Source: Mycoplasmatota bacterium (GTDB taxonomy: Bacteria; Bacillota_I; Bacilli_A; Haloplasmatales; Haloplasmataceae). Taken from it: a DNA stretch of 64,000 nucleotides. The DNA lies in contig CP074573.1 in assembly GCA_018394295.1 (NCBI GenBank), positions 2,651,684-2,715,683 of the forward strand, read 5' to 3'. Of the stretch, positions 7,915 to 56,699 are shown piece by piece. A program made the position numbers and the translations under genes. How positions within the stretch are numbered: the first letter of the stretch is position 1; each line of letters opens with the position of its first letter. Under the pieces are notes generated by a model that did not search any database, was not told the origin of the DNA, and was given only the letters and a program-made list of their open reading frames with translations.

Positions 7915-7940
7915 ATTTATACGTTATATATATTATATTA

Positions 7941-7975
7941 TATCAAAAAGATACTGCGTTTACAGTAACTTTTAT
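7941..7975. repeat. dispersed 35-bp palindromic repeat, copy 1 (TATCAAAAAGATACTG-N6-CAGTAACTTTT)
   Basis: Member of a 5-copy family sharing AAAAGrTACTG-N6-CAGTAmCTTTT. Sits immediately upstream of the gene starting at 7914. Confidence 0.6.
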
Positions 7976-8048
7976 TATTTATATTTTATATAAGAAGAGC
8001 CTGTCGTCTTTTTAATTTTTTTACAACTCCCCTTCAAAAAGTCAAAAA

Positions 8049-13955: not shown

Positions 13956-14017
13956 TTGTTCTAGTTATTATATTTAGATCAACTCTACTAATAAATTATG
14001 TATGTTACACCATGCTC

Positions 14018-14293
14018 TTACTTTTTAGTCTTATTAATATTTATAACATTAGACACAATTGTAATGCCACCAACAATTAAACACCCTATTCCAAATAAAT
14101 TTCGTTCTAACACTACTCCAATTGAACCGACAACAATAAGCCCAACACCTATACTATTTCCAATAACTGATCCAATGAAAGATACTTTCTTTGAAGGATG
14201 AATTAATTTTTCTACCGTGTCCATGGATTTACTCAAAGTATTTTGTGAAATATTTTTTGTTGCTTCAATTAGATTTTTATTGTATTTATTCAT
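14018..14293 (-). CDS. small hydrophobic/membrane protein (91 aa), hypothetical
   Basis: GGAGG RBS 8 nt upstream of the ATG. Gly/Ile-rich TM segments. Start codon 23 nt from the IS6-like left end. Confidence 0.35.
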   Translation of the reverse strand: MNKYNKNLIEATKNISQNTLSKSMDTVEKLIHPSKKVSFIGSVIGNSIGVGLIVVGSIGVVLERNLFGIGCLIVGGITIVSNVININKTKK

Positions 14294-14504
14294 ATTATCA
14301 CCTCCATATAGTAGTTGGTAGTGTAAAAGTTTTTCTTAAAACCAATACAAAACCTTATATATATATTATTTTTTATTATATAATGAGTTCCCCCCCTGTG
14401 TTTGGGAGGTTGCTCGTTATATTTTTTTAACCCTTTATATACAAAAAGATAGATACACCTGATATAATTTAATCACCACAAAAAAACTATAAGGAGTATC
14501 TATC

Positions 14505-14768
14505 ATGGTTAAAATTATATCAGTTCTTTCAGTATTTTTAAAGTATTTAAACAAACTACTTTATAAATTTATTCTTTTTCTAGATTCACACATTATTTCT
14601 ACACCTAGTTCTAAGTCATCTGGCACTTATTATGAACCTTTTAGGAAGTTCACTGTTGATGGTGAACCTATTATTCAGAAGGTTGAAAAGCTAGATTATC
14701 AAGAATTGCTTAATGTGTATTTTTTAAAGTACAATAAGCATCTCAAACCAGTTACTAGACGAATATAA
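14505..14768 (+). pseudogene. IS6-like transposase, N-terminal segment interrupted by IS21 insertion
   Basis: First 85 aa identical or near-identical to the intact-length copies at 55564 and 31229. The reading frame ends 2 codons after the IS21 junction. Confidence 0.8.
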
Positions 14769-14816
14769 ATGTCAAGATAATAATGTACATTTTTGATCAT
14801 TTAATAATGTACATTT

Positions 14817-15566
14817 TTAATTTTCTTCGATAAAGTAATTTTTAAGTCGATAAGATTTACCTGTAATGTTAACTACATGAGCATGATGAAGAACTCGATC
14901 AAGGATAGCGTTAGCTATTACAGGGTCTTTAAAAATATCATCCCAATTAGAAAAGTTAATGTTGGTTGTAATTATCGTACTTCGTTTTTCATATCGTCTA
15001 TCTATTAGCTGAAAGAACAATTTAGAATCTTCTTTGTCGATAGGTAAATAGCCTAGTTCATCAATAATCAATAATTTGTACTTGGTAAAATGCTTGAGTC
15101 TATCGTTTAAGCGATTTTCTAACTTAGCTTTCTTTAACTGGGCTATCAAATCATGACATTTTATAAAGTAAGTTGATATACGCTTCTTCGCAGCGGATAT
15201 ACCTATTGATGTAGATAAGTGGGTTTTACCAACACCACTCGTTCCCATAAAAACGATGTTCTCGCATTGATGGATGAATCGATGACTCTCAAAATCTAAT
15301 ATTTGTTCTTTGTTTATATTTTCTTGGAAAGAGAAGTCAAAATCCTTCAATTCTTTGTAATGGGGGAATGCCCCTACTTTAACCATAGCTTTGATCATAC
15401 TAGCCTCTTTATAATCAATTTCATATGTTGTTAATTTAATAAGCCCATCAACGAAAGATAGATTATTTTTATTAATAAAGTTAATAGTATCGTCTAAATG
15501 ATTTTTCATTTCTTTTAATTTTAAATATTCTAAATTTGCGATTAATTGCTCGTGTGCTGTTGTCAT
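14817..15566 (-). CDS. istB: IS21-family helper ATPase IstB
   Basis: GTSGVGKTHL Walker A, LLIIDELGYLP Walker B, RYEKRSTIITTN and ILDRVLHH motifs. Confidence 0.85.
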   Translation of the reverse strand: MTTAHEQLIANLEYLKLKEMKNHLDDTINFINKNNLSFVDGLIKLTTYEIDYKEASMIKAMVKVGAFPHYKELKDFDFSFQENINKEQILDFESHRFIHQCENIVFMGTSGVGKTHLSTSIGISAAKKRISTYFIKCHDLIAQLKKAKLENRLNDRLKHFTKYKLLIIDELGYLPIDKEDSKLFFQLIDRRYEKRSTIITTNINFSNWDDIFKDPVIANAILDRVLHHAHVVNITGKSYRLKNYFIEEN

Positions 15567-16866
15567 TATTTATAACGTTCTCCTATCTTATTAAGATTTT
15601 CTTTTGCGAATTTTTGAATATCTTCATCATCAAAAGATAGAGTCATTCTGGCAATCTGTATATAGTGCTCCTCTAAATAATTCAACTTTTTACTACTTAA
15701 CGAGTGTATTGTCACCAAATTTGTGTTAGAATATATGTGAATTTGATTATCATATACCTGCAGTTGAAGTGTACGGTTCATATATTTAGGTGGTACTGAA
15801 TATTGATTACCCTTATAACTAATCATTGATGATGAGTTTACTTTCGCTGTTATGGTTTTAATCAAGTATAGATTTCTTATCGTGTCTCGTGGAGGGGACT
15901 GTAAGAAATCTTTTTCATTTTGTAGGCCAAATAGTGGAATCATATCATAAGCTCTATGTAACCTACTGTTTTCTCTGTTGTTTATTTCTTGTACCTTTTT
16001 CACTAATTGTTCATAATTTAAATCACCACTATATGCTTTTAATTCATCTAAAATTTTCATAGGGGATTCAACCTTTGCTTTTGTATTTGGTCTGCCTGCG
16101 ATACAGGGTTTAACTTCAAATCCATAATCATTAGCGAATTGTTGAAATTTATTATTTACTTTTCCTTTTGAATATTCAGTTCTTGGTACATCCATTACTG
16201 TTTTCATATTATCAGTTAGTATTTCATGAGGTACACCACCAAATGCTTGAAATGCTTCGTCTATGAAGTTAAACAGTATGTCTTGAGATTTAGTTAATGA
16301 TAATCTATAAACTCTAAACCTTGAGTAACTCAGTAATAAAACGAATATATTGATTGTGATGACTTCTCCTGTATCAAGCACGAAATTCATTGATTCTTTC
16401 CAATCTAGCTGTGCTTGTTGACCTTTATCTGTTTCATAACGTATAACTGAAGGTGCTTTGATAGCACTTTTTTCTTTTGATCAAAGTACTCTTGAAATTC
16501 TGGTGTTTTACTTATATATCGCCTAAATGATGATTCAGCACATTTTAGTCCATAATTATCACTAAGATACTGCCAAAGCACTTTTTTATATTCAAAAACT
16601 TTTATTTTATCATTGAGTAAATCTTTAATTAAGTAGTAATAATCATCTACTATACTTGATCGTTTTCTATTTTTAGACTTCTCATAACCATTAATGTACT
16701 TACTTATCGTTCTTCTATCAACATTTAACTCTCTTGCTAATCGACTTTTATTTACCTTTAAGTTTGTTGTTTCCATTAAATTCTTTAATACCTTCAAATC
16801 ATTTAATTTCTGTATTTCTATATTAGTATCTATTTCATAGTTTAGTATCATAAGTTGTCCTCCCAT
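15566..16866 (-). pseudogene. istA: IS21-family transposase IstA with a single frameshift
   Basis: N-terminal HTH part (16405-16866) and DDE catalytic part (15566-16390) lie in different frames. The frameshift maps to an A/T homopolymer run near 16470-16480. Confidence 0.65.
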
Positions 16867-16952
16867 TGATTAACTATGAAATTATACTATATTAACTGTA
16901 CATTTTAAAGTGATCACTTCTGTACATATCTATCTTATCATTTATAGACGAA

Positions 16953-18121
16953 GGCCATCAAAACTTGATTTCAAAGGAAATTGCCCTATTTGTGGTGCTC
17001 CTCATGATTACATCTATGAAAATAATATTAAATCAAAACAGTTACTTTGTAAGGTATGTAGTCATACATTTACCTTGAATAATGATTTTCTTGAAAAGAT
17101 TATTTTAAAATGTCCTCATTGTTCAAAGAACCTTGAAAGAATTAAAGACCGTAATAGTTATATTATTTATAAATGTAGACATAAGAAATGTTCCTTTTAT
17201 TTAGATAAATTAAAGAAATTAACACCAGATCAATTAAAACAATTCAAAAAGAAACCAGGTAAATTTAAACTTCATTATATCTATCGTGCTTTCGATATTA
17301 ACTTTGATTCCCTAGAACGTGACTCTATGTCTAATTTAAATATGAAGGTTGATTTAGCCAATATCAGACATTCTAAGCATACTCTAGGCTTAATCTTAAC
17401 GTATTACGTTAACTACGGTTTGTCGAGTAGGAAAACTGCAGCTATCATGTATGATATTCACCAAGTTAAGATTTCCCATCAAACCGTGATGAATTATGCA
17501 AATAGTGTTTCTACAATGATTCGTCCCTTACTTGAAAATTACCCATATGATTTATCATCTGACCTTTGTGGGGATGAAACATATGTTAGGGTTAAGGGGA
17601 AGAAGCATTATATCTTCTTCTTCTCAGATAAAATTAAAAAGATTATTACTTCTTATCAAGTTTTTAGTAAACGTGATACTTTTTCAGCAGTCGTTTCACT
17701 ATATCAAACATTCAAAAAATACACTGAACTACCTAAGAATTTGAAAGTAGTTGTGGATGGTAATCCTATTTACAACGTTGCATGGTCATACTTTAAAAGC
17801 ATGAACATAAATTTCGATTTATTTCAAGTTATAGGACTCACTAATAACACGAAAACAGACAAGGATTACCGTCCATTTAAACAAGTAACTGAGCGTTTAA
17901 ATAGAACTTTCAAAGACGATTATATCCAAATGAACGGATTTGGTAATATCAAGAGCGCTAATGCTTATATGGTCTTGTTTACAACGTTTTTTAACTTTCT
18001 AAGACCACATAAATCGTTAGGTTATAACCCACCTGTTAAATTAGAAGAGTTTGAGGATTTACCTCATATGCCAAGCAAATGGCTTTCTCTAATAGATATG
18101 AGTTACTCTTATATAAACTAA
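16953..18121 (+). pseudogene. IS6-like transposase, C-terminal segment (resumes after IS21)
   Basis: Continues ...PSKLDFKGNCPICGAP (Zn-finger CxxC x2, CPHC) and the DDE region DETYVRVKGKKHY / VDGNPIY / RPHKSLGYNPP. Confidence 0.8.
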
Positions 18122-18431
18122 TTTTTAACTAAGGAGTATCTCTATATAAGCGTATTTAAATATGCCTTTTTTATTTGCATATAATGATATAGTAAGATAA
18201 AACTGAGTATTGTAATCTAACATACTACAATTCCAGTTTTTTTTATTTTGGGTCATAGAGTTATCATGAGTTTTCATAATTTATTTGACACTACCTAGTA
18301 GTTAAATATTAAAATAATTTTTAACCTTCTACCTCAGCTCTATCTTTTCTAACCATTACTAGTATTGTTGAATAAATCACTGACTATTTCATCTTACATA
18401 CAAACCGTTAGTATGTAAAAATGCAAAAATA

Positions 18432-18452
18432 AACTTCCTCTTTAGGAAGGTT
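18432..18452 (-). terminator. rho-independent terminator after the TetR gene
   Basis: aacttcctc-ttt-aggaaggtt hairpin followed by a T-run on the minus strand. Confidence 0.5.
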
Positions 18453-18472
18453 ATTGTATATAATAAATCAAT

Positions 18473-19114
18473 CTATATAGATGTTACATTATGGAAGTCA
18501 TTAAGTACCTCTATAATATCATCATCAATAACTGGCAATCCTATGCCATCGAGTATTTTTTTTAGAAAATTGACTTTATCAACAAATTGTTTTTTACTTA
18601 CAACAAATACAGCAGGATTTAACCAAATATTTAATAAAAGCATTAAAACTTCAGACAGTTCTTTTGGATTAGTAATATTGATAGAACCATCTGTCATACC
18701 CTCTTCAATTAATTGTTGTAACAAAGGTGCATAATTAGATACTGATTGATTTAGCTGCCTTGATAAAAATTCTGGGTTTTTCATCAGTGTTGGTGATGAT
18801 TTGTAAAGTTGTTGTTGCTTTTTACTGGATATAGATTCAATAAAAATTTTTTTTATCTTTTGTAATCCATTCAATGGACTATCCTCTTTTATTTTGTTAA
18901 ATGGATTATGTTCTTGGTACATTCTTACAGTTACAGCATCAATTATTTCTTCTTTTGACTTGAAATGATGATATATAGCTCCTTTACTAAGGTCTCCTAA
19001 ATTATCTACTATATCTTGAATCGTCGTCTTCTCATAACCTTTTTTTAAAAATAATTCAAGAGAAATATCTAAGATGCGATTTACTGTTACTTCTGGATAT
19101 TTATTTCTAGACAT
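18473..19114 (-). CDS. TetR/AcrR-family transcriptional regulator
   Basis: N-terminal HTH TetR_N signature (ILDISLELFLKKGYEKTTIQDIVDNLGDLSKGAIYHHFKSKEEI). Confidence 0.8.
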   Translation of the reverse strand: MSRNKYPEVTVNRILDISLELFLKKGYEKTTIQDIVDNLGDLSKGAIYHHFKSKEEIIDAVTVRMYQEHNPFNKIKEDSPLNGLQKIKKIFIESISSKKQQQLYKSSPTLMKNPEFLSRQLNQSVSNYAPLLQQLIEEGMTDGSINITNPKELSEVLMLLLNIWLNPAVFVVSKKQFVDKVNFLKKILDGIGLPVIDDDIIEVLNDFHNVTSI

Positions 19115-21190: not shown

Positions 21191-21485
21191 AAAGTTGTTC
21201 TCCTTACTAAGTTATTAAATTTTATTTCAAGACAACTAGTTGTCTTGAAATAACTTACTATGTCTACTATACTATTTTTAGAGCTCCATGACAACTATTC
21301 TAACACAGAGGGTAAACGCTATACTAAATTTTGTATCCAATGTTTCACTATCTATATCACTTACTATATTCTAAAGATCAAATGTTATTATAGTATTTTC
21401 ATAAGTCATTAAGTGTGTATGATGTGCAATTGGTGCATCATTACTAACAACAGATAATTATAATATATAATGGATTTTATATATT

Positions 21486-22004
21486 TTACAAATTCAGTTT
21501 ATTACACCATGCTTTTACTTCTTTATGTCCATTTAAAATAATAACTTGTTTACCTAACTTTTCTGCTTCATTAAATAGTAATTGACGCTCGATTTTCTTC
21601 TTTGGATATCCAGATAATACATATTTCACAACTTCCATATTATATTCTTCGTAACATCCCTCGGAAAGTTCCGGACGTGCATCATATTTATGTTTAAAAT
21701 ATCTTCTCAGTCCTCTAAATAAGTATATAAATCGATTTATATTTATATATATTATAGTGTCACAATTTTCGAATCTACCGTCTTTCTTTGATGCACTGAA
21801 TTTGTTTCCATCAAATATCCATTTATCTTTTTCTGATAACTCCTTAATTATATCAATCTGTTCTTTCTCTGATCGCTCTTGCCAGTTTTCCTTCCAGGTA
21901 ATACTGTCTCTATGATATACAGAAATATTAAATTTGTTTTCAAGCTTATTTGCTAAGGTAGTTTTCCCAGAACCAGACGAACCAGTTATCCATATCCTTT
22001 GCAT
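21486..22004 (-). CDS. small P-loop NTPase/kinase (AAA_33/topology-modulation-protein-like)
   Basis: ITGSSGSGKTT Walker A. 172 aa. ~80% identical paralog at 26267-26785. Confidence 0.6.
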   Translation of the reverse strand: MQRIWITGSSGSGKTTLANKLENKFNISVYHRDSITWKENWQERSEKEQIDIIKELSEKDKWIFDGNKFSASKKDGRFENCDTIIYININRFIYLFRGLRRYFKHKYDARPELSEGCYEEYNMEVVKYVLSGYPKKKIERQLLFNEAEKLGKQVIILNGHKEVKAWCNKLNL

Positions 22005-22074
22005 TACGACCTCCTACAAATATTGACTGTGATTATAATATCAATTATAATTGACATTACTATTTACTTAATTA

Positions 22075-22108
22075 TATCAAAAAGATACTGAGTTAACAGT
22101 ACCTTTTG
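22075..22108. repeat. dispersed 35-bp palindromic repeat, copy 2
   Basis: TATCAAAAAGATACTGAGTTAACAGTACCTTTTG, between the NTF2-like fragment and the kinase gene. Confidence 0.6.
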
Positions 22109-22193
22109 TTTATTATAATTATATTTAAACAATAAAATAATTTATTATTAGAGGTTTCTGTTTAATTATGGAATCCTATCTAAAAGTTTATAT

Positions 22194-22433
22194 TTATTCA
22201 TCTTGCCATAACATATTTGAAATCTTCCAACCACTTCCATCATTTAATAAATGGATTAAGTTTACACCTCTTTTTATAATTTCTTCATGTTCTTTAGACT
22301 TTTTCGCTTCATACTTACTATAAACATTAGCTATATTCTTATAAGTTTTAATCTCATAGTTTAATCCATATTCATAAAAATTATGCTCTCTAAGGAAATT
22401 TCTAACCTTTAAAATATATTGATTAACATCCAT
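22194..22433 (-). pseudogene. N-terminally truncated NTF2/SnoaL-like protein (paralog of 27002-27409)
   Basis: 79 aa, ~90% identical to the C-terminal 79 aa of the 135-aa paralog. The 5' part is deleted. Confidence 0.55.
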
Positions 22434-22640
22434 TTGTAATAGTTTACCTATATGGATCCATCGAATTCTGCAAAATAATTAATTCTGTTCCTAAAGAATC
22501 TGCTATTTTCTTATTTATCTTTACAAACCATTTACCAAATTCACTTCCAACCATTACCACAGCATATTATATTTTTTATCAGCTGATTTTTTCATATTTT
22601 TTCAAGCACTAATATGAGAAAATAAGATCACTTAAATAAC
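22434..22640 (-). pseudogene. remnants of alpha/beta-hydrolase gene and downstream sequence (deleted copy of 27560-28860)
   Basis: ~110 bp nearly identical to part of the hydrolase gene at 27570-27680, followed by ~80 bp matching 28760-28850. Internal deletions. Confidence 0.5.
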
Positions 22641-25822: not shown

Positions 25823-26266
25823 TCCCTTAAGGAGATTTTCATTAGGTAAATTAGTTTCTATATTATAATTCTTTAACTTAGTTGCATTTTTTGTTCTTCT
25901 TTAATTTTTGTCAAATCGGTAAATATACCTAAATATTTATCAACTTTACTGTTAGATTTATTTTTCATCACGTATATGAACAGTTTTTTGGGATACAACA
26001 TACCATCTTTTTTTCTGTCCCACAACTCTCCCTTCCAAATGTAATGCATAAAGTAAACAACTGTTGTTTCTGAACTTAATCCAAATTTTTTTTCATCTAA
26101 TTGGCTTCCTATAAGCATTTTCAGTAGTGCCTATTCAACAAGTTGTCTTTCTTCAAATTTCATAGCGCAACTCCCTTTAATAGGTTTATTTTATACTCTA
26201 TAAGATTTCTTTAATAATCAATAAGTATCTTTGTAAAAGTATACTTAATATTGGCTCTTATAATAT

Positions 26267-26785
26267 TTATAAATTCAGTTTATTACACCATGCTCTTACT
26301 TCTTTACGTCCATTCAATATAATTACTTCTTTCCCTAACTTTCTAGCTTCATTAAATAGTAATTGTCGCTCATATTTCTTTTTTGGATAGCCAAATAATA
26401 CATATTTTATTGCTTCCATATTATATTCTTCATAACATCCTTCTGAAAATTCAGGTCTTGTATGATGTCTATGTTTTAAATATCTTCTTACTCCTCTATA
26501 TAAACATAAAAATCGATTTATATTTATATGTATTATCATGTCACAATTATCAAATCTACCATCATTCTTTGAAGCACTGAATTTATTACCATCAAATATC
26601 CATTTATCTTTTTCTGATATCTCTTTTATTATTTCAATCTGTTCTTTCTCTGAACGCTCTTGCCAATTTTCCTTCCAGGTAATTCTGTCTCTATGATATA
26701 CAGGAATATTTAATTTGTTTCCAAGTTTATTCGCGATAGTAGTTTTCCCTGAACCAGACGAACCTGTTATCCATATCCTATACAT
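26267..26785 (-). CDS. small P-loop NTPase/kinase (paralog of 21486-22004)
   Basis: ITGSSGSGKTT Walker A. 172 aa. Confidence 0.6.
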   Translation of the reverse strand: MYRIWITGSSGSGKTTIANKLGNKLNIPVYHRDRITWKENWQERSEKEQIEIIKEISEKDKWIFDGNKFSASKNDGRFDNCDMIIHININRFLCLYRGVRRYLKHRHHTRPEFSEGCYEEYNMEAIKYVLFGYPKKKYERQLLFNEARKLGKEVIILNGRKEVRAWCNKLNL

Positions 26786-26865
26786 TTACGATCTCCTACA
26801 TATATTATTTTTTTGACTGTGATTTGATACTAATAATAAATGAATTTACTATTTACTTAATTATA

Positions 26866-26900
26866 TCTAAAAAGATACTGAATTAACAGTACCTTTTGTT
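26866..26900. repeat. dispersed 35-bp palindromic repeat, copy 3
   Basis: TATCTAAAAAGATACTGAATTAACAGTACCTTTTG. Confidence 0.6.
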
Positions 26901-27001
26901 ATTAATATTTCTTTTTAAACAATATAATAATTAGTAATAAAAAGATTAATAATTTCAGTTTAATGGAAACCTCGCTATCTTTACAATATCTAAATAAATT
27001 T

Positions 27002-27409
27002 TTATTCATCTTGCCATAACATATTTGAAATCTTCCAACCACTTCCGTCATTAAATAAATGGATTAAGTTTACACCTCTTTTTATAATTTCTTCATGTTC
27101 TTTAGACTTTTTCGCTTCATACATACTATAAACATTAGCTATATTCTTATAAGTTTTAATCTCATAGTTTAATCCATATTCATAAAAATCATGCTCTTTA
27201 AGGAAATTGTTAACCTTTAAAATATATTGATTTACATCAATTTGTAATGACAAAACTTCATTTTCTTCATTTATTATTATTGGTTTTATTATTGCGTCTT
27301 TTGTAAATAGATTTTTAAAATAAACCCAATCCCGTTTTTCATTAGATTTTCCTGAAATTATCCTGTAAAACTCATTTATAACTTTTGTTATCCTCTGTTT
27401 TTCTGACAA
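27002..27409 (-). CDS. NTF2/SnoaL-like small protein (135 aa)
   Basis: Intact ORF. Paralog of the truncated 22194-22433 copy. Confidence 0.45.
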   Translation of the reverse strand: MSEKQRITKVINEFYRIISGKSNEKRDWVYFKNLFTKDAIIKPIIINEENEVLSLQIDVNQYILKVNNFLKEHDFYEYGLNYEIKTYKNIANVYSMYEAKKSKEHEEIIKRGVNLIHLFNDGSGWKISNMLWQDE

Positions 27410-27511
27410 TTAAATCCCTCCATTTTATAAATTTCACCCTCTGTGTAACCATTTCTGATAATCGTATACTTCAGGTTTCTTATTGTTTTCCCATAAAATT
27501 TCTTCTAATAT

Positions 27512-28297
27512 TTATTCATCGAGAAATTCAAGTACATTTTTATTAAATTCATCTGGATTTACTAAATTAGATGGATCCATCGAATTCTGTAAAATAATTA
27601 AATCTGTTCCTAAAGAATCTGCTATTTTCTTATTTATCTTTACAAACCATTTACCAAATTCACTTCCAACCATTACCATAGCATTAAATTTATGGTTGTT
27701 TAATTCATCTAAAATAGCTATCTGATTAATCGCCTTTCTTGACAAAACCATTTGTTTCAGATCAACCTCTAGGCAGATTTCCTTAAAATATTTTTTAGCT
27801 CTATAAGCAAAATCAGCTTTGTAAGTAGACTCCATTCCTTTTGCTAATGCTTTGTTCCCTAAAATTTTAAATAATTTATATCCTATTACCGATGAAAAAC
27901 CAAGTATTCTTTCAGGGATTGTTTTTAACTCTCCAAAACTATCAGAAATTATTATTTTATCTACTAAATCAGGATAGTTTACAATAAATGATAAAGCTAT
28001 TACTCCTCCCATACTCACACCGATTATAGATACTTTATGTATATTTAAATGTATTAGTAATTCCTCTATTTGTTTTGTCCAATCAGAGAGTGTTAATTTA
28101 TTAACCCTTGAAGATTTTCCATGTGCAATCATATCAGGAACAATAATATGATATCCTTTTGAAGCATACAATTCTGTTTGAGGTCTCCACATTTGATTGT
28201 CTGCACCTATTCCATGAATTAAAAGTATAGTAGGATCGCATTTTTCCCCATACTCCTCATAATATGTTCTTAAACCCTTTTGATTTTCAAATATCAT
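27512..28297 (-). CDS. alpha/beta-fold hydrolase
   Basis: HG oxyanion motif (LLIHGIGAD), nucleophile elbow GVSMGG, C-terminal His region. Confidence 0.8.
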   Translation of the reverse strand: MIFENQKGLRTYYEEYGEKCDPTILLIHGIGADNQMWRPQTELYASKGYHIIVPDMIAHGKSSRVNKLTLSDWTKQIEELLIHLNIHKVSIIGVSMGGVIALSFIVNYPDLVDKIIISDSFGELKTIPERILGFSSVIGYKLFKILGNKALAKGMESTYKADFAYRAKKYFKEICLEVDLKQMVLSRKAINQIAILDELNNHKFNAMVMVGSEFGKWFVKINKKIADSLGTDLIILQNSMDPSNLVNPDEFNKNVLEFLDE

Positions 28298-29061: not shown

Positions 29062-29627
29062 TTCTATTATAAACTTGGATTCAACCTGCCCTAGACCTAC
29101 TGAATCTGGTGGTTTTTTATTTCTCTAATTTTTTAACGATATATAAATCATCTATAATATTGATATATATATAAAATTATAACATAATTAAATCGTAATT
29201 AAAATTTCTATATGATTAACTCTGAATGTTAATGTGGTGCAGTTAAATGCTTTTTATCTGTATACCGGAATTTTAATTTACCAAATTGGGGGTTCGATTC
29301 CCCACAACATCAGGAATGTTGCTATGGTTTAGATCTGACTTTTAATCAGAAATAAAAAAAAAGAATAGAAATTTTAAGTTAATATTTCCATTAATATTTT
29401 TATATTAATAAAAAAGTAAATTACCTTGTATAAATTAGGATACCGTAGACATTTTATATTTACCAACACTTATTTATCCTAACGTTTATGTCTATTAATA
29501 CCAATGGCTAAACCACTTGTGTCCGTAAATATATAATGCTACTTAATAATTTATCCGTTATTTACTTTTGAAATATTCGCTTATTATTTCTATAGGCATT
29601 TACCCTCAGGGGATTATCTTATAAAAA

Positions 29628-31418
29628 GGTAGTGTCAAATAAATTATGAAAACTCATAATAACTCTATGACCCAAAATAAAAAAAACTGGAATTGTAGTA
29701 TGTTAGATTACAATACTCAGTTTTATCTTACTATATCATTATATGCAAATAAAAAAGGCATATTTAAATACGCTTATATAGAGATACTCCTTAGTTAAAA
29801 ATTAGTTTATATAAGAGTAACTCATATCTATTAGAGAAAGCCATTTGCTTGGCATATGGGGTAAATCCTCAAACTCTTCTAATTTAACAGGTGGGTTATA
29901 ACCTAACGATTTATGTGGTCTTAGGAAGTTAAAAAACGTTGTAAATAAGACCATATAAGTGTTAGCACTCTTGATGTTACCAAAGCCGTTCATTTGGATA
30001 TAATCGTCTTTGAAAGTTCTATTTAACCGCTCAGTTACTTGTTTAAATGGACGATAATCCTTGTCTGTTTCCGTGTTATTAGTGAGTCCTATAACTTGAA
30101 ATAAATCGAAATTTATGTTCATGCTTTTAAAGTATGATCATGCAGCGTTGTAAATAGGGTTACCATCCACAACTATTTTCAAATTCTTAGGTAGTTCAGT
30201 GTATTTTTTGAATGTTTGATATAGTGAAACAACTGCAGAAAAAGTATCACGTTTACTAAAAACTTGATAAGAAGTAATAATCTTTTTAATTTTATCTGAG
30301 AAGAAGAAGATATAATGCTTCTTCCCCTTAACCCTAACATATGTTTCATCCCCACAAAGGTCAGATGATAAATCATATGGGTAATTTTCAAGTAAGGGAC
30401 GAATCATTGTAGAAACACTATTTGCATAATTCATCACGGTTTGATGGGAAATCTTAACTTGGTGAATATCATACATGATAGCTGCAGTTTTCCTACTCGA
30501 CAAACCGTAGTTAACGTAATACGTTAAGATTAAGCCTAGAGTATGCTTAGAGTGTCTGATATTGGCTAAATCAACCTTCATATTTAAATTAGACATAGAG
30601 TCACGTTCTAGTGAATCAAAGTTAATATCGAAAGCACGATAGATATAATGAAGTTTAAATTTACCTGGTTTTTTTTTATATTGTTTTAATTGATCAAATG
30701 ATAATTTCTTTAATTTATCTAAATAAAAGGAACATTTCTTATGTCTGCATTTATAAATAATATAACTATTACGGTCTTTAATTCTTTCAAGGTTCTTTGA
30801 ACAATGAGGACATTTTAAAATAATCTTTTCAAGAAAATCATTATTCAAGGTAAATGTATGACTACATACCTTACAAAGTAATTGTTTTGATTTAATATTA
30901 TTTTCATAGATATATTTATGAGGAGCACCACAAATAGGGCAATTTCCTTTAAAATCAAGTTTTGATGGATTTCTTCTAGAAACAGGTTTTAATTGCTTAT
31001 TGTGCTTTAAAAAATACTCATTAAGCAATTCTTGATAATCTAGCTTTTCAATCTTTTGAATAATAGGTTCACCATCAACAGTGAACTTCCTAAAAGGTTC
31101 ATAATAAGTGCCAGATGACTTAGAACTAGGTGTAGAAATAATGTAGGAATCTAGAAAAAGAATAAATTTATAAAGTAGTTTGTTTAAAGACTTTAAAAAT
31201 ACTGAAAGAACTGATATAATTTTAACCATGATAGATACCCCCTGTATGGTTGGTTGTGGTGACTTAATTATATCAGGGGTATCTATCTTTTTGTATATAA
31301 AGGGTTAAAAAAATATAACGAGAAACCTCCCAAACACAGGGGGGGAACTCATTATATAATAAAAAATAATATATATATAAGGTTTTGTATAGGGTTTAAG
31401 AAAAACTTTTACACTGCC
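29628..31418 (-). mobile_element. IS6/IS26-like insertion sequence copy B (inverted relative to copy A)
   Basis: IRs GGCAGTGTAAAAG / GGTAGTGTCAAAT. Perfect 8-bp TSD TATAAAAA (29620-29627 and 31419-31426). ~1.79 kb. Confidence 0.8.
29802..31229 (-). pseudogene. IS6-like transposase with internal nonsense mutation (TGG to TGA at the ...NPIYNAAW codon)
   Basis: Two ORFs (30138-31229 and 29802-30122) in the same frame, separated by a single stop where the other copies encode Trp. Confidence 0.75.
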
Positions 31419-31441
31419 TATAAAAATAAGGGAGTGGGATA

Positions 31442-32560
31442 ATGAAATATATTATCAAAAGTAATGAAGTTGGTTTACTATTTAAGAAACAAGTATTTAA
31501 AAAAGTATTAACAGTAGGTGAATATACTTATGTTTTAAAATCCAGAAAAGTTATAATAGTAAATAAGAAAATAGCACTTGAAAATAATGGAATTGAGGTT
31601 AAAACATTAGCTAATAATAAAGTGTTACTTAACAAGATTACATCCATTCAAGTTAAAGAAAATGAAGTTGCATTTCACTTCATTGATGGACTTTTCTTTG
31701 AATTATTAACGGCAGGTACTTATTCTTTTTTCAACGATACATACGCACACACTTTCACAATTGTTGATACAAAAGATATTTATATTCCGGACTCGATTGA
31801 TATAAGTGTATTAGAATCACTAATATATCATGATAATTATCGTAAAATAATATGTTCATATGTAGTTGAAGAAGGATTTATTGGAATATTAAAAGTAAAC
31901 GGTAAGTTTGGAAAATTATTAGGTCCTGGAAAATATTATTTCTTTACGAATATCAATGTTATTAATGTTAAATATATTGATACTAGAAATCAAGTATTAC
32001 AAATCAGTGGTCAAGAATTACTAACAAAAGATAAAGTAACATTAAGAATGAATTTTGTATTATCATATAAAATTACAGATAGCCTAAAAGCCGCAACCAC
32101 ATTAGATCATTATGAAGAACAACTCTATCTATTTATGCAACTGGCTCTAAGAGAATATGTATCCACAAAGACACTTGATGAATTATTAGCTGAAAAACAT
32201 GAAATAGGCAAAATTATTTTAGATACAGTTAAACCAAAAGAAAATGACTTTGGAGCTATATTTATGGAAGCTGGTCTTAAAGATATTATTTTACCTGGAG
32301 AAATAAAAGATATCCTTAATACAATACTACTCGCTGAAAAGAAAGCTCAAGCCAATGTGATTACTAGACGTGAAGAAACAGCATCAACACGAAGCCTATT
32401 AAATACCGCAAAAATTATGGACGAAAATGAAACACTATATAAACTAAAAGAATTAGAATATCTAGAAAGAATATGTGATAAAGTCGGGAATATCTCATTT
32501 TCTTCAAGTGGTGGAATTATAGAACAATTAAATGAACTGATTAAAGTTTCTAAAAAATAA
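31442..32560 (+). CDS. SPFH/band-7 (stomatin/prohibitin-like) domain protein
   Basis: Central region (NFVLSYKITD...LALREYVSTKTLDELLAEKHEIG) matches the SPFH fold pattern, followed by a C-terminal coiled coil. Start codon 23 nt from the IS6-like copy B left end. Confidence 0.5.
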   Translation: MKYIIKSNEVGLLFKKQVFKKVLTVGEYTYVLKSRKVIIVNKKIALENNGIEVKTLANNKVLLNKITSIQVKENEVAFHFIDGLFFELLTAGTYSFFNDTYAHTFTIVDTKDIYIPDSIDISVLESLIYHDNYRKIICSYVVEEGFIGILKVNGKFGKLLGPGKYYFFTNINVINVKYIDTRNQVLQISGQELLTKDKVTLRMNFVLSYKITDSLKAATTLDHYEEQLYLFMQLALREYVSTKTLDELLAEKHEIGKIILDTVKPKENDFGAIFMEAGLKDIILPGEIKDILNTILLAEKKAQANVITRREETASTRSLLNTAKIMDENETLYKLKELEYLERICDKVGNISFSSSGGIIEQLNELIKVSKK

Positions 32561-32585
32561 AATATTTACTTATGATTAACTAATA

Positions 32586-32620
32586 TTATCAAAAAGGTAC
32601 TGTATTAACAGTACCTTTTG
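32586..32620. repeat. dispersed 35-bp palindromic repeat, copy 4 (perfect arms GTACTG/CAGTAC)
   Basis: TATCAAAAAGGTACTGTATTAACAGTACCTTTTG, immediately after the SPFH gene stop. Confidence 0.6.
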
Positions 32621-32787
32621 ATATTCATATCTAATTTTCCTAATACATAACATAAATTGAAAAGATGATTAATATCTTGATATCTTTTTTTCTAGATCAT
32701 TATATATTAGAGTATTCAAACTTTTCTACTGGTTCATTAGTAAGAGGCTTATATTTAAACTTATCTATATATTCACCTAACAAAACA

Positions 32788-49895: not shown

Positions 49896-49926
49896 GTTTT
49901 TATCTCCTCCTCTAGTTAGTTTTATT

Positions 49927-49963
49927 ATATCAAAAAAGGCACTGTAAAACAGTACCTTTTATC
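49927..49963. repeat. dispersed 35-bp palindromic repeat, copy 5
   Basis: TATCAAAAAAGGCACTGTAAAACAGTACCTTTTA, ~30 nt upstream of the 49895 start. Confidence 0.55.
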
Positions 49964-50212
49964 ATTTATATCTTTATTTCCCTTCATAAACCACAGACAC
50001 TACAACCTCTACATGCCTTGTTTTGGGTGTAGGTACACGCTAGTTGTTACTCGTTTGTTGATCTTTCAATATACTCTAATTCTAAATCTAAATAATAGGC
50101 AAAATACACGAACAACTGAGTTGCATTTTGTTTATGCTATCCTAATTCTGAGCTATCTTCAATAATTTTTAAATACTGGTTATTCATTATAACCGTTCTC
50201 CTTCTGGTACAT

Positions 50213-54386: not shown

Positions 54387-55355
54387 TTATATCTCTAACA
54401 TCAATTTACCCATTATGCTCCAATCATATATGCCCGTTACTTGAACTGCTTTCTTTCCATTATGAGTTTTAAAAGATAGCTTAATAGGAAATGACATCAA
54501 TAGAAATTCATGATTACCTAATGGTATTAGTTTTATATTTTTAAAGAAAAAAACCTCACAGTATATATTCTCTTTGGATTCATCTAATTTAATTTTTAGC
54601 TCATGCTGCCTATCATCAATTGTAACAGAATATCTTCCACAATATTGTTGCAGAAATTCAGGTACTATCACCTTTTCATAATTATACTCTAACCCCAAAT
54701 ATTCCATTAAATCCTTCATATATTTTTCCCATAATTCATTTGAGGTGTTTATCTTAATTTTATTACCTTGGTAACGCCTGAACATAGTATCGGCAATTTC
54801 TTGGTAATTTTCCCACATATTATAAACACTATCATCGCCTTTATATTCATGCTCATTAAAATAGCCTTCTCCTTCTGCATTGAGAATAATATTTTTCCAT
54901 CTTTCTCCACGAACTTCAAATGCCGTTCTAAAGGAATCTCTTAATTCTGAACGATATAAAAATACTATAGTTGGATTAAGTTTTGAGATTATTTCCATAA
55001 CTGTATCATAAAACTTAGTTATTTTTTCTATTGAATAATTACAGTTAAAGAAATAACGTATTATATTCTGATATAGACATCCTTCCATTATAAATACATC
55101 ATCAGATTTCTCTATGTCGTCAGCTAATTTTCCCCATAAACTGTACATATATGAAACATTTTTATCCATATCTTCTTCAGAATCTATACTTGCAATACTA
55201 AACTCTTTGTCTCGTATAGGATGAGCTTTAATTTCTTCATGTAACCATCGATGTTTAATCCCATTTTGTTCATATTGATATGCTAACTTCTGTGAAGTAG
55301 TAGATTTACCAGCTCCACTTATCCCTGTGACAATAATTAATTTAGAATCTTTCAT
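54387..55355 (-). CDS. P-loop NTPase/kinase-like protein (322 aa), hypothetical
   Basis: Walker A GISGAGKST. Start codon 22 nt from the IS6-like copy C left end. Confidence 0.5.
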   Translation of the reverse strand: MKDSKLIIVTGISGAGKSTTSQKLAYQYEQNGIKHRWLHEEIKAHPIRDKEFSIASIDSEEDMDKNVSYMYSLWGKLADDIEKSDDVFIMEGCLYQNIIRYFFNCNYSIEKITKFYDTVMEIISKLNPTIVFLYRSELRDSFRTAFEVRGERWKNIILNAEGEGYFNEHEYKGDDSVYNMWENYQEIADTMFRRYQGNKIKINTSNELWEKYMKDLMEYLGLEYNYEKVIVPEFLQQYCGRYSVTIDDRQHELKIKLDESKENIYCEVFFFKNIKLIPLGNHEFLLMSFPIKLSFKTHNGKKAVQVTGIYDWSIMGKLMLEI

Positions 55356-55377
55356 ATCTTCTCCCCCATTAGATTTT

Positions 55378-56664
55378 TGGTAGTGTAAAAGTTTTTCTTA
55401 AAACCAATACAAAACCTTATATATATTTTGTTTTTATTCTATAATGAGAATCCCCCCCTGTATTTTGGAGGAGCTCGTTATATTTTTTTATCATATAAAT
55501 ACAAAAAGATAGATACCCCTGATATAATTAAGTCACCACAACCAACCATACAGGGGGTATCTATCATGGTTAAAATTATATCAGTTCTTTCAGTATTTTT
55601 AAAGTATTTAAACAAACTACTTTATAAATTTATTCTTTTTCTAGATTCGCACATTATTTCTACACATAGTTCTAAGTCATCTGGCACTTATTATGAACCT
55701 TTTAGGAAGTTCACTGTTGATGGTGAACCTATTATTCAGAAGGTTGAAAAGCTAGATTATCAAGAATTGTTTAATGTGTATTTTTTAAAGTACAATAAGC
55801 AATTAAAACCTGTTTCTAGAAGAAATCCATCAAAACTTGATTTCAAAGGAAATTGCCCTATTTGTGGTGCTCCTCATGATTACATATATGAAAATAATAT
55901 TAAATCAAAACAGTTACTTTGTAAGGTATGTAGTCATACATTTACCTTGAATAATGATTTTCTTGAAAAGATTATTTTAAAATGTCCTCATTGTTCAAAG
56001 AACCTTGAAAGAATTAAAGACCGTAATAGTTATATTATTTATAAATGTAGACATAAGAATTGTTCCTTCTATTTAGATAAATTAAAGAAATTAACACCAG
56101 ATCAATTAAAACAATTCAAAAAGAAACCAGGTAAATTTAAACTTCATTATATTTATCGTGCTTTCGATATTTACTTTGATTCCCTAGAACGTGACTCTAT
56201 ATCAAATTTAAATATGAAGGTTGATTTAGCCAATATCAGACATTCTAAGCATACTCTAGGCTTAATCTTAACGTATTACGTTAACTACGGTTTGTCGAGT
56301 AGGAAAACTGCAGCTATCATGTATGATATTCACCAAGTTAAGATTTCCCATCAAACCGTGATGAATTATGCAAAGAGTGTTTCTACAATGATTCGTCCCT
56401 TACTTGAAAATTACCCATATGATTTATCATCTGACCTTTGTGGGGATGAAACATATGTTAGGGTTAAGGGGAAGAAGCATTATATCTTCTTCTCAGATAA
56501 AATTAAAAAGATTATTACTTCTTATCAAGTTTTTAGTAAACGTGATACTTTTTCTGCAGTTGTTTCACTATATCAAACATTCAAAAAATACACTGAACTA
56601 CCTAAGAATTTGAAAGTAGTTGTGGATGGTAATCCTATTTACAACGCTGCATGGTCATACTTAT
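55378..56664 (+). mobile_element. IS6/IS26-like insertion sequence copy C, truncated at the right end
   Basis: Left IR GGTAGTGTAAAAG and left arm conserved. Similarity to the other copies stops at ~56664, inside the transposase gene. No right IR or TSD. Confidence 0.75.
55564..56664 (+). pseudogene. IS6-like transposase, 3'-truncated (ends after ...NPIYNAAWSY then unrelated sequence)
   Basis: Near-identical to copies A and B up to the truncation point. The annotated ORF 55428-56708 runs into flanking DNA. Confidence 0.75.
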
Positions 56665-56699
56665 TCTCTCAAACTCCTCCTTCTTGTCCAAATATGCTT

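What the first reader, a model, noticed from the sequence alone, without database searches (positions are those of the whole stretch)
14309..18303. New IS6/IS26-like insertion sequence family member (3 copies) with unusually long arms and an N-terminal Zn-finger transposase
Three copies (14317-18295, 29628-31418, 55378-56664) share >95% identity. Their terminal IRs, GGTAGTGTAAAAG / GGTAGTGTCAAA, resemble the IS26 IR (GGCACTGTTGCAAA). Perfect 8-bp TSDs flank copy A (TAGTAGTT) and copy B (TATAAAAA), as expected for the IS6 family.

The element is ~1.79 kb, whereas classical IS26 is ~0.8 kb. It has ~190-bp and ~175-bp untranslated arms. Its ~475-aa transposase carries N-terminal C2C2/CPHC Zn-finger motifs ahead of the DDE core (DETYVRVKGKKHY ... 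VDGNPIY ... RPHKSLGYNPP).

None of the copies is intact. A is split by IS21, B has a TGG to TGA nonsense codon, and C is truncated. The family therefore appears to be decaying in this genome.
Basis: seen in the sequence. Interest (0 to 1): 0.5.

Follow-up and report, generated by a model that had tools for sequence, protein, structure and literature searches.

The report
Long zinc-finger IS6 element targeting gene starts
The three repeats are copies of a 1.8-kb insertion sequence from an already catalogued "long, zinc-finger" branch of the IS6 family, but this branch turns out to insert, in one fixed orientation, almost always 23 bases upstream of a gene's ATG start codon and 3 bases outside its ribosome-binding site, a target preference I could not find described.

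Summary
Copies A (14317-18295), B (29628-31418, minus strand) and C (55379-56662) are 96-97% identical. They share GGTAGTGT(A/C)AAA inverted repeats. A and B have perfect 8-bp duplications, and all three carry the stated lesions.

The transposase passes the Pfam IS6/IS240 threshold, and NCBIfam IS6 is its best hit. However, length above 1.7 kb, long arms, a double zinc ribbon and an extra N-terminal region already define published IS6 clade VIII/i (ISTet2, ISHahy6, ISHco2). This is therefore a new member of a known kind.

"Decaying" is wrong for the genome as a whole. The source genome (Mycoplasmatota bacterium, KHQ81) lists five intact 475-aa genes. Copy A with the IS21-like insert removed encodes a protein identical to the product of two of them.

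The unexpected result concerns the target. The left end lies exactly 23 nt from a divergent gene's ATG in 3/3 window copies, 14/14 finished-genome sites and 47/57 sites overall. The other ten lie at 24 or 26 nt. A C-rich Shine-Dalgarno complement sits at -16 to -12.

ISCpe7-type relatives, which have the zinc ribbons only, fix the Shine-Dalgarno position but not the ATG. IS257 shows neither feature. Decoy sites and same-site tandem arrays argue for direct DNA-motif recognition.

The parts
14309..14316 (.). Left 8-bp target-site duplication of copy A (TAGTAGTT)
   Evidence: Identical to 18296-18303.
14317..14504 (+). Copy A left arm. It holds IRL (14317-14329, GGTAGTGTAAAAG) and the untranslated leader of the transposase gene.
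   Evidence: Alignment of the three copies. IRL and IRR match at 12/13 and 21/30 positions.
14448..14504 (+). Leader hairpin that pairs GATAGATAC(A/C)CCT with the transposase Shine-Dalgarno sequence right up to the ATG. In copy B the two halves are 31275-31287 and 31230-31242.
   Evidence: RNA fold of the copy B leader: -42 kcal/mol, z = -4.2, 0 of 200 shuffles as stable. The stem is kept in 7 close relatives. At least 7 different stem sequences occupy the same place in distant relatives.
14505..14763 (+). Transposase codons 1-86 of copy A. The annotated 87-aa ORF runs on into the insert, to 14768.
   Evidence: Identical to P0123 / QVK17645.1.
14514..14542 (-). Outward (antisense) promoter-like site, TTTAAA-17-TGnTATAAT, overlapping transposase codons 4-13.
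   Evidence: Consensus scan. The count in this region is no higher than in shuffled sequence. A comparable site recurs at the same relative place in 30 of 57 family members, with differing hexamers. Function is inferred only.
14764..16946 (-). IS21-like element (2183 bp) inserted into copy A. It carries istB (14817-15566) and an istA split into 15566-16390 and 16405-16866. Its 6-bp duplication GACGAA lies at 14758-14763 and 16947-16952.
   Evidence: Pfam IstB_IS21 244.7 bits; rve, Mu-transpos_C_2 and HTH domains. Terminal repeats TATAAATG.... Removing it restores a 475-aa ORF.
16953..18124 (+). Remainder of the copy A transposase gene: two zinc ribbons, an HTH and the DDE core (D294, D355, E400, K407).
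   Evidence: Invariant columns in alignment A1. AlphaFold2 model with pLDDT 81.5. Foldseek hits to the ISCth4 transposase, retroviral integrases, Mos1 and TnsB.
18125..18295 (+). Copy A right arm. It contains an A-tract/hairpin/T8 element and ends in IRR (18283-18295).
   Evidence: The fold of the whole arm is not significant (z = -0.9). A terminator role is inferred.
18296..18303 (.). Right 8-bp target-site duplication of copy A (TAGTAGTT)
14018..14308 (-). Target of copy A: a 91-aa gene with ATG at 14291-14293, Shine-Dalgarno complement CCTCC at 14301-14305, and 3 nt before the duplication.
   Evidence: The IS tip lies 23 nt from the ATG.
29620..31426 (-). Copy B (IS 29628-31418, 1791 bp) with 8-bp duplications at 29620-29627 and 31419-31426. 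The transposase gene spans 29802-31229, with a premature TGA at 30138-30140.
31427..32560 (+). Target of copy B: an SPFH/Band-7 gene. Its ATG at 31442 lies 23 nt from the IS tip at 31418.
55379..56662 (+). Copy C. The left end is intact. It is truncated after about codon 366 and has a 3-bp in-frame deletion.
   Evidence: Matches P0126 / QVK17684.1.
54387..55378 (-). Target of copy C: a P-loop NTPase gene. Its ATG at 55353-55355 lies 23 nt from the IS tip at 55379.

Best explanation
Shown:
- The window holds three damaged copies of a 1.79-kb insertion sequence.
- Its single 475-aa DDE transposase has five parts: an N-terminal helix with a small domain, two Cys4 zinc ribbons, an HTH, and an RNase-H-fold DDE(K) core.
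- This places it in the long, zinc-finger branch of the IS6 family (clade VIII/i).
- Insertion makes an 8-bp duplication.
- Elements of this branch insert in one orientation, with the left end (IRL) facing a gene start.
- The layout is: ATG, 6-7 nt, Shine-Dalgarno (SD) sequence, 3 nt, 8-bp duplication, then IRL. The ATG is therefore 23 nt from the IS tip.

Inferred:
- The accessory N-terminal modules read this motif directly in double-stranded DNA. The zinc ribbons would read the SD G/C block. The extra N-terminal segment found only in clade VIII would fix the ATG.
- The long left arm carries the transposase promoter and a leader hairpin that hides the transposase's own SD.
- An antisense outward promoter over the first codons may damp the transposase, as RNA-OUT does for IS10. 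It may also transcribe the captured gene, whose SD and ATG are left intact.
- The right arm would act as a terminator and insulator.
- Strand transfer probably follows the IS6 copy-in (cointegrate) route. This was not tested.
For: Identity.

Target rule:
- 3/3 window copies obey it.
- 14/14 finished-genome sites lie at exactly 23 nt, with a perfect duplication wherever both ends are present.
- Of 57 distinct flanks from an unbiased sample, 47 lie at 23 nt, 7 at 24 and 3 at 26. C is dominant at -16 to -12, and there is no signal within the duplicated 8 bp.
- Chance of CAT at a fixed position is 0.019, giving P = 2e-71.

Direct DNA readout:
- No GTG or TTG starts appear among the 57 sites.
- 12 of 49 evaluable target ATGs head ORFs shorter than 50 aa. 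One finished-genome site reads ATG-TGA and has a perfect duplication.
- A tandem array reads TTCCCATT|IS|TTCCCATT|IS|TTCCCATT. This is what re-insertion at a motif that survives insertion would produce. IS dimers then moved to other SD-ATG sites.

Domain correlation:
- ISCpe7-type elements start at our Cys97, so they have the zinc ribbons only. Their SD block is fixed in 12/12 sites, but the ATG lies 23-27 nt away or is absent.
- IS257, which has no zinc finger, obeys the rule at 0 of 13 ends.

Leader hairpin. Outward promoter.
Against: - No biochemical or genetic data exist for any long IS6 member (stated in PMC6807381).
- The domain-to-motif assignment rests on a correlation across three groups, and the ISCpe7 group has only 12 sites.
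- The N-terminal 225 aa have no significant structural neighbour in the PDB, so DNA binding by it is unproven.
- The NCBIfam IS6 score is below the equivalog cutoff, and Harmer & Hall propose removing these elements from the IS6/IS26 family.
- The outward promoter is only a consensus match in AT-rich, coding-constrained sequence, and such matches are as frequent in shuffled sequence.
- Many metagenome copies lack matching duplications. This could reflect chimeric assembly or recombination between copies.
Confidence: 0.8

Rival explanations
1. The flank pattern arises from selection after near-random insertion. Only insertions just upstream of an intact ribosome-binding site would be tolerated, for example because an IS-borne promoter keeps the gene expressed.
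For: Most targets (37 of 49) are real genes whose SD and ATG stay intact. A recurrent outward promoter-like site exists.
Against: - The position is precise to the nucleotide, with 47/57 at 23 nt and none outside 23-26.
- Orientation is strictly fixed.
- No GTG or TTG starts occur.
- Decoy motifs without genes are hit.
- There is same-site re-insertion.
- The IS257 control shows nothing.
Selection alone would allow the whole promoter-to-SD interval and both orientations.
Confidence: 0.04
2. Target choice is guided by an RNA or by the translation machinery. Candidates are an arm-encoded RNA or ribosome-bound nascent mRNA marking gene starts, by analogy with the IS110/IS1111 bridge or seeker RNAs that use long non-coding ends.
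For: - The arms are long and non-coding.
- The leader is strongly structured.
- The target is a translation signal.
- The IS carries its own SD-ATG in mirror orientation about 175 nt from the target's.
Against: - The leader hairpin is explained by SD sequestration, and its sequence varies between subgroups while the target stays the same.
- No Rfam family matches the arms.
- The enzyme is a DDE transposase, not a DEDD recombinase.
- Decoy ATG-stop sites are hit.
- ISCpe7 has much shorter arms yet still finds the SD.
Confidence: 0.06
3. The element should not be filed under IS6 at all. It would belong to a separate family of zinc-finger DDE elements that share only a distant catalytic core with IS26 and IS257.
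For: - Identity to the IS257 transposase is about 24% and covers only the HTH and first two Asp residues.
- The NCBIfam IS6 score is below cutoff.
- Harmer & Hall explicitly propose separation.
- The target behaviour differs from that of IS257.
Against: - ISfinder and Varani et al. 2021 keep clades h and i in IS6.
- The Pfam IS240 threshold is passed.
- The end motif and 8-bp duplication are shared.
- NCBI names some 479-aa homologues and the ISCpe7 group as IS6 family.
Confidence: 0.3
4. The repeats belong to another zinc-finger IS family (IS1595, ISL3 or IS66) or are not mobile elements.
For: Weak sub-threshold hits to the IS66, IS3 and IS481 profiles and to the Zn_ribbon_IS1595 domain.
Against: All these hits are far weaker than the IS6/IS240 hit and cover only parts of the protein. 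The ends and the 8-bp duplication fit IS6, and multiple independent insertions carry duplications.
Confidence: 0.01

Closest known systems
ISTet2, ISHahy6 and ISHco2 (IS6 clade VIII of Harmer & Hall 2019; clade i of Varani et al. 2021)
   Same: - Length 1.71-1.76 kb versus 1.79 kb here.
- A single transposase of about 453 aa versus 475 aa, with a zinc finger plus a further ~100-aa N-terminal extension that starts with a hydrophobic, signal-peptide-like helix.
- An 8-bp duplication and short imperfect terminal repeats.
- Firmicutes-type hosts.
- About 26% or less identity to Tnp26.

   Different: The host here is a Mycoplasmatota (Haloplasma-like) bacterium. Direct sequence comparison was not possible because the ISfinder sequences are not held by these tools. 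Neither paper mentions a target preference for these elements.
ISCpe7 / ISCbo1 group (IS6 clade VII / h; 1.27-1.31 kb, 340 aa)
   Same: - Homologous zinc ribbons, HTH and DDE core (23% identity, E 5e-22).
- An 8-bp duplication.
- The same orientation-specific insertion next to a Shine-Dalgarno block (12/12 sites).
   Different: - It lacks residues 1-95 and about 24 aa between the zinc ribbons and the HTH.
- Its arms are shorter.
- The ATG distance varies from 23 to 27 nt, or no ATG is present.
- The SD block sits 1 nt further from the end.
IS26 / IS257 (classical IS6, about 0.8 kb)
   Same: HTH and DDE(K) core, GG...TGT...AAA ends, an 8-bp duplication, and -35-like TTGACA/TTGCAA hexamers in the terminal repeats.
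   Different: - No zinc finger, and 220-250 aa.
- No SD/ATG preference (0 of 13 IS257 ends in pSK41).
- The copy-in and targeted-conservative cointegrate routes are shown experimentally only for this group (PMC7986276, PMC6952201).
TnGBS / ISLre2-type DDE elements that insert 15-17 bp upstream of sigma-A promoter -35 boxes (recalled from memory: Brochet 2009, Guerillot 2013; not checked here)
   Same: A DDE transposase homing at a fixed distance and in a fixed orientation to a generic gene-expression signal rather than to a unique site.
   Different: The signal there is a promoter, not a translation start. The transposase family is unrelated, and insertion there leaves the promoter-gene link intact.
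IS10 pOUT / RNA-OUT (recalled from memory)
   Same: An outward promoter just inside the left end, antisense to the transposase leader and SD, and able to read into flanking genes.
   Different: Here it is only a recurrent consensus match. No RNA has been shown.

Membership tests
IS6 family (ISfinder sense) | Transposase matches the IS6/IS240 DDE profile | tested here: met
   Pfam PF13610 scores 47.7 bits against a gathering cutoff of 27.
IS6 family (ISfinder sense) | Transposase reaches the NCBIfam IS6 equivalog cutoff | tested here: not met
   NF033587 is the best hit (71.5 bits, E 7e-20, profile positions 4-201 of 202) but falls below the 125-bit cutoff. The protein is a distant member rather than an equivalog.
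IS6 family (ISfinder sense) | Terminal repeats with a GG tip and cTGTt...caaa motifs | tested here: met
   The ends read GGTAGTGT(A/C)AAA. The motif is described in PMC7986276. In most relatives IRL starts with C rather than G.
IS6 family (ISfinder sense) | 8-bp target-site duplication | tested here: met
   Copies A and B. Relatives in finished genomes.
IS6 family (ISfinder sense) | HTH followed by DDE plus K/R catalytic core in a single ORF | tested here: met
   D294, D355, E400 and K407 are invariant in alignment A1. The AlphaFold2 model has an RNase-H fold that matches DDE transposases and integrases. It aligns with the HTH of IS257.
IS6 family (ISfinder sense) | Movement by copy-in cointegrate formation | not testable with these tools
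   This needs genetics. PMC6807381 notes that no experimental data exist for the long members.
IS6 clade VIII / i (ISTet2 group) | IS longer than 1.7 kb, with a transposase of about 450 aa carrying a zinc finger plus an extra ~100-aa N-terminal region | tested here: met
   The element is 1791 bp and encodes 475 aa. Eight invariant Cys form two ribbons (C97/100/119/122 and C140/143/161/166). An N-terminal helix spans residues 2-31 and a small domain spans 56-76.
IS6 clade VIII / i (ISTet2 group) | Clusters by sequence with ISTet2, ISHahy6 and ISHco2 | not testable with these tools
More than 2100 homologues of 450-480 aa exist.
IS6 clade VII / h (ISCpe7 group) | Transposase of about 340 aa that starts at the zinc finger; IS of about 1.27 kb | tested here: not met
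   The protein here has 95 extra N-terminal residues, and the IS is 1.79 kb. It is homologous to this group but not a member.
IS21 family (the insert in copy A) | istA (HTH, rve, Mu C-terminal domain) followed by istB (AAA+), terminal repeats, and a 4-8 bp duplication | tested here: met
   Pfam hits. Terminal repeats TATAAATG... and a 6-bp GACGAA duplication. istA is split into two frames, so this copy is probably defective.

The most novel reading that the evidence does not exclude
The zinc-finger branch of IS6 (clades VII and VIII) would be a previously unrecognised class of site- and orientation-specific insertion sequences. They would home to translation-initiation motifs (SD-N7-ATG) by direct DNA readout through their accessory N-terminal modules, with the zinc ribbons reading the SD and the clade-VIII extension reading the ATG. 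Each insertion would cut a gene off from its promoter while leaving its ribosome-binding site intact, possibly placing it under an IS-borne outward promoter. Because the motif survives insertion, the same site could be hit again, building tandem IS arrays that then move as units.
Probability: 0.55. Interest if true: 0.75.

Novelty: new member of a known kind. Interest (0 to 1): 0.6.

Why it matters
As an element, this is one more member of a catalogued IS clade, and its 'odd' architecture is already described.

The value lies in what the copies reveal about that clade. A DDE transposase family with thousands of members in Firmicutes-type genomes picks a generic gene-expression signal, the ribosome-binding site plus ATG. 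It does so with single-nucleotide precision and in a fixed orientation.

If confirmed, this would:
- assign a function to the unexplained zinc-finger and N-terminal domains, and support treating the long elements as a family of their own;
- predict systematic promoter replacement or polarity at gene starts, including inside operons (for example between purN and purH in Anaerosalibacter);
- explain tandem IS arrays;
- offer a compact, protein-only module for delivering DNA to gene starts;
- let annotators locate the ends of these IS and flag affected genes automatically.

Tried and rejected
- The genome-contig scan with the protein gave only 3 loci, and the host genome is not in that collection.
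- Exact-protein look-ups of P0001 and P0100 found nothing.
- A naive finder for inverted repeats plus duplications produced mostly spurious ends. I replaced it with an end-motif search.
- A hybrid promoter from the TTGACA-like box in IRL was considered and rejected. A 17-nt spacer would put the -10 box on top of the target's SD.
- The scan for intrinsic terminators found none in the arms under its criteria. The right-arm fold is not significant (z = -0.9).
- The Rfam E-value scan of 14000-18600 found nothing in the arms.
- Foldseek with the N-terminal 225 aa against the PDB returned nothing below E = 1, so the fold gives no clue to how the target is read.
- Within close relatives the leader hairpin shows no covariation. 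The support for it comes only from distant subgroups.
- The supplements of both IS6 reviews hold no ISTet2, ISHahy6 or ISHco2 sequences.
- Six literature searches for SD-, RBS- or start-codon-targeting IS found nothing relevant. One further search failed on term format.
- I first suspected that the C-run in the left arm was a copy of the target. It is better explained as the 5' half of the SD-sequestering stem, or as promoter spacer.


Full report

Yes. Repeat finding and a three-way alignment show three copies of one element.
- Copy A lies at 14317-18295 on the plus strand.
- Copy B lies at 29628-31418 on the minus strand and is 1791 bp.
- Copy C lies at 55379-56662 on the plus strand.
- Pairwise identity is 96.1-96.7%.

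The ends are GGTAGTGTAAAAG (GGCAGTG in B) and, reverse-complemented, GGTAGTGTCAAAT. They match at 12 of 13 and 21 of 30 positions.

Copy A is flanked by TAGTAGTT at 14309-14316 and 18296-18303. Copy B is flanked by TATAAAAA at 29620-29627 and 31419-31426.

All three lesions are as described.
- A carries a 2183-bp IS21-like element at 14764-16946. IstB scores 245 bits. istA contributes HTH, rve and Mu C-terminal domains but is itself split into two frames. The 6-bp duplication is GACGAA.
- B has TGA at 30138-30140 in place of Trp364.
- C stops being homologous near 56662 and has lost one Phe codon.

**2. What is it?**

Reading through the stop in B, or removing the insert from A, gives a 475-aa protein.
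- Pfam DDE_Tnp_IS240, the IS6 model, is passed at 47.7 bits against a cutoff of 27.
- NCBIfam's IS6 model is the best hit and is covered almost end to end (E 7e-20). The score is below the equivalog cutoff of 125 bits, at 71.5.
- An 18-sequence alignment shows eight invariant cysteines forming two Cys4 ribbons (97/100/119/122 and 140/143/161/166). It also shows an invariant DETY...DGNPIY...ERLNRxF(K) triad.
- An AlphaFold2 model (pLDDT 81.5) has a long N-terminal helix, a small domain, two ribbons, an HTH and an RNase-H-fold core. The nearest solved structures to the core are the ISCth4 transposase, retroviral integrases, Mos1 and TnsB.
- The protein is 23% identical (E 5e-22) to a transposase that NCBI annotates as 'IS6-like element ISCpe7 family'. 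That alignment starts at our Cys97.
- It is 24% identical to the IS257 transposase over the HTH and first two Asp residues.

**3. Comparison with what is known**

Both IS6 reviews describe exactly this architecture.
- Harmer & Hall 2019 (PMC6807381) list clade VIII: ISHahy6 (1713 bp, 453 aa), ISHco2 (1727 bp) and ISTet2 (1761 bp, 454 aa), with 8-bp duplications. [quoted passage not shown] They share at most 26% identity with Tnp26.
- Varani et al. 2021 (PMC7986276) call the same group clade i.

The family is large. The homologue search returned 2164 hits, mostly 450-480 aa, from Clostridia, Bacilli and Haloplasma-like Mycoplasmatota.

I could not align the element with the three ISfinder entries themselves, because no sequences are held. 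Clade membership therefore rests on architecture, plus homology to the neighbouring ISCpe7 clade.

**4. 'Decaying in this genome' is not supported**

Window ORFs are identical to QVK17645.1 (87 aa), QVK17647.1 (403 aa) and QVK17684.1 (380 aa). These belong to a 'Mycoplasmatota bacterium' chromosome of 3,195,757 bp (locus tags KHQ81_). The same 90% cluster holds five intact 475-aa genes from that chromosome.

Copy A, after removing the IS21-like element and one GACGAA, encodes a protein with 0 differences from P0122, which is present at two loci. The IS21 hit is thus its only lesion and is probably recent.

Close relatives (85-87% amino-acid identity) occur in Inordinaticella fortuita, as a 1788-bp contig at 192x coverage, and in a Haloplasmataceae MAG.

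**5. The unexpected part: where it inserts**

In all three window copies the left end lies exactly 23 nt from the ATG of a divergently oriented gene:
- A: CAT ATTATCA CCTCC ATA [TAGTAGTT] GG...
- B: CAT TATCCCA CTCCC TTA [TTTTTATA] GG...
- C: CAT ATCTTCT CCCCC ATT [AGATTTTT] GG...

I tested this in relatives.

Finished genomes. All of the following obey the rule exactly and have perfect duplications:
- four Anaerosalibacter copies;
- one Amphibacillus xylanus copy;
- four distinct sites in GCA_900156875.1;
- two sites in a 2.9-Mb genome.
With the window copies this makes 14 of 14 at 23 nt.

Wider sample. A metagenome scan returned the best 80 loci by protein match, with no reference to their flanks. 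I located left ends by the end motif alone. Among 57 distinct flanks, which include the window and the genome loci L002-L008:
- CAT lies at 23 nt in 47, at 24 nt in 7 and at 26 nt in 3;
- C dominates positions -16 to -12;
- the 8 duplicated bases carry no signal.

CAT at a fixed position is expected at 1.9% of positions, giving P about 2e-71.

**6. Targeting or selection?**

Several results point to direct recognition of a DNA motif.
- None of the 57 sites uses a GTG or TTG start. From general knowledge of Firmicutes genomes, not measured here, roughly a fifth would be expected if function rather than sequence mattered.
- 12 of 49 evaluable target ATGs head ORFs shorter than 50 codons. One in a finished genome reads ATG-TGA and has a perfect duplication (L007).
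- The motif survives insertion, so it should be hit again. GCA_900156875.1 contains TTCCCATT|IS|TTCCCATT|IS|TTCCCATT. It also contains IS-TTCCCATT-IS dimers that moved as units to other SD-ATG sites. Two of these carry their own 8-bp duplications (TCGTTTTT and ATCTATAT). A third site holds an array of at least three copies.
- Seven IS257 copies in pSK41 show nothing: 0 of 7 left flanks and 0 of 6 right flanks.

**7. Which part of the protein might do it?**

ISCpe7-type elements have the zinc ribbons but lack residues 1-95. They also insert next to a Shine-Dalgarno block. In 12 of 12 sites the block ends at -14 or -13, and all 11 sites with both ends present have perfect duplications. However, the ATG lies 23-27 nt away, or is absent in two sites.

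This gives a graded series.
| Group | Accessory domains | Target rule |
|---|---|---|
| IS257 | none | none |
| ISCpe7 type | zinc ribbons | SD position fixed |
| This clade | zinc ribbons plus N-terminal extension | SD and ATG both fixed |

It suggests, but does not prove, that the ribbons read the G/C block and the extra segment reads the ATG. The N-terminal 225 aa fold confidently (pLDDT 81) but have no significant PDB neighbour.

**8. What the long arms are for**

The left arm contains a hairpin that pairs GAUAGAUACCCCU with AGGGGGUAUCUAUC, immediately before the AUG. Its energy is -42 kcal/mol, z = -4.2, and 0 of 200 shuffles fold as well. The stem is invariant in close relatives. In distant subgroups at least seven different stem sequences occupy the same place. 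This fits sequestration of the transposase's own SD.

On the opposite strand, over codons 4-13, sits TTTAAA-17-TGnTATAAT. A comparable outward site recurs at that place in 30 of 57 members, with different hexamers. It could make an antisense RNA and could also transcribe the captured gene. This is inference, because such matches are common in AT-rich DNA.

The right arm has an A-tract/hairpin/T8 element before IRR (the fold of the whole arm is not significant). No Rfam family matches either arm.

**9. Has the target rule been reported?**

Neither IS6 review mentions a target preference for these clades. Six full-text searches found nothing on insertion sequences that home to Shine-Dalgarno or start-codon motifs. 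The library is incomplete, so prior description cannot be excluded.

**10. Verdict**

The finding as written is correct in observation and ordinary in kind. It is a new, unnamed member of the known long IS6 clade, with intact siblings elsewhere in the same genome. The interest comes from the family-wide, nucleotide-precise, orientation-specific insertion at translation-initiation motifs. The three window copies exemplify it, and I could not find it described.

Noticed in passing
window 14291-14316, 31419-31444, 55353-55378; loci L002-L088, L104-L115: The left end of every copy lies 23 nt from the ATG of a divergent gene, 3 nt outside its Shine-Dalgarno block. This holds for 47/57 relatives, with the rest at 24 or 26 nt, and for 14/14 finished-genome sites.
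   Followed up: yes
L104-L112 (GCA_900156875.1, LT707408/LT707409): There are head-to-tail IS arrays whose internal spacer is always TTCCCATT. At one locus the same 8-mer also flanks the array, indicating re-insertion at the same site. At two others the dimer carries its own duplication, so it moved as a unit. L031 shows a similar IRR-8 bp-IRL junction.
   Followed up: partly
L089, L090, L093-L102 (ISCpe7/ISCbo1-type, Clostridium and Cetobacterium plasmids, viral contigs): The 340-aa clade VII elements also sit next to a Shine-Dalgarno-like C-run in 12/12 sites. Their ATG distance varies (23-27 nt), and in two cases there is no ATG at all.
   Followed up: partly
L007 1260-1310 (Anaerosalibacter FUHM01000002): This is a decoy target. 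It has a perfect SD-N7-ATG motif followed at once by TGA, yet it carries an insertion with a perfect 8-bp duplication.
   Followed up: partly
window 14764-16946: The IS21-like element inside copy A has its istA split into two frames (16405-16866 and 15566-16390), so it is probably defective too. It has a 6-bp duplication GACGAA and terminal repeats starting TATAAATG.
   Followed up: partly
window 31230-31287 (copy B), 14448-14504 (copy A): A leader hairpin sequesters the transposase Shine-Dalgarno sequence. Copy A carries two non-compensating changes in it (C to A and G to A).
   Followed up: yes
window 14514-14542 (minus strand): An extended -10 outward promoter-like site lies over the first transposase codons. 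The conserved Ile-Ile at residues 4-5 (ATTATA) is the complement of TATAAT.
   Followed up: partly
L004, L005, L091, L092 right arms: In the Bacilli/Clostridia subgroups, which have 250-330-nt right arms, four copies of CCCTTGACAA / TTGTCAAGGG occur as inverted repeats. These contain the core of the terminal repeat. They may be extra transposase-binding sites or a structured RNA.
   Followed up: no
family-wide: In most relatives IRL begins CGTATTGTCAAA while IRR begins GGTA(A/G)TGT. The left tip therefore departs from the IS6 'GG' rule. Contigs that consist of the IS alone start with this C, so it belongs to the element.
   Followed up: partly
window 56663-57015: Copy C is cut off inside the transposase gene and abuts a 126-aa minus-strand ORF with no Pfam match. 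The event that truncated it is unexplained, and it is not the kind of adjacent deletion an IS end would make.
   Followed up: no
window 7927-7986, 22061-22120, 26851-26910, 32573-32632, 49914-49973: There are five copies of an AT-flanked palindrome, AAAAAG(A/G)TACTG...CAGTA(C/A)CTTTT. It looks like a shared bidirectional terminator or a REP-like element.
   Followed up: no
window 21456-22565 and 26237-27684: A segment of about 1.1-1.4 kb is duplicated 4.8 kb apart (83-96% identity). It includes paralogous 172-aa genes at 21486-22004 and 26267-26785.
   Followed up: no
L005 (Anaerosalibacter 2153197-2157612): Here the IS sits inside the purine operon, between a formyltransferase gene (purN-like) and purH. 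Insertions are thus not confined to promoter-proximal genes and should be polar unless the IS supplies transcription.
   Followed up: no
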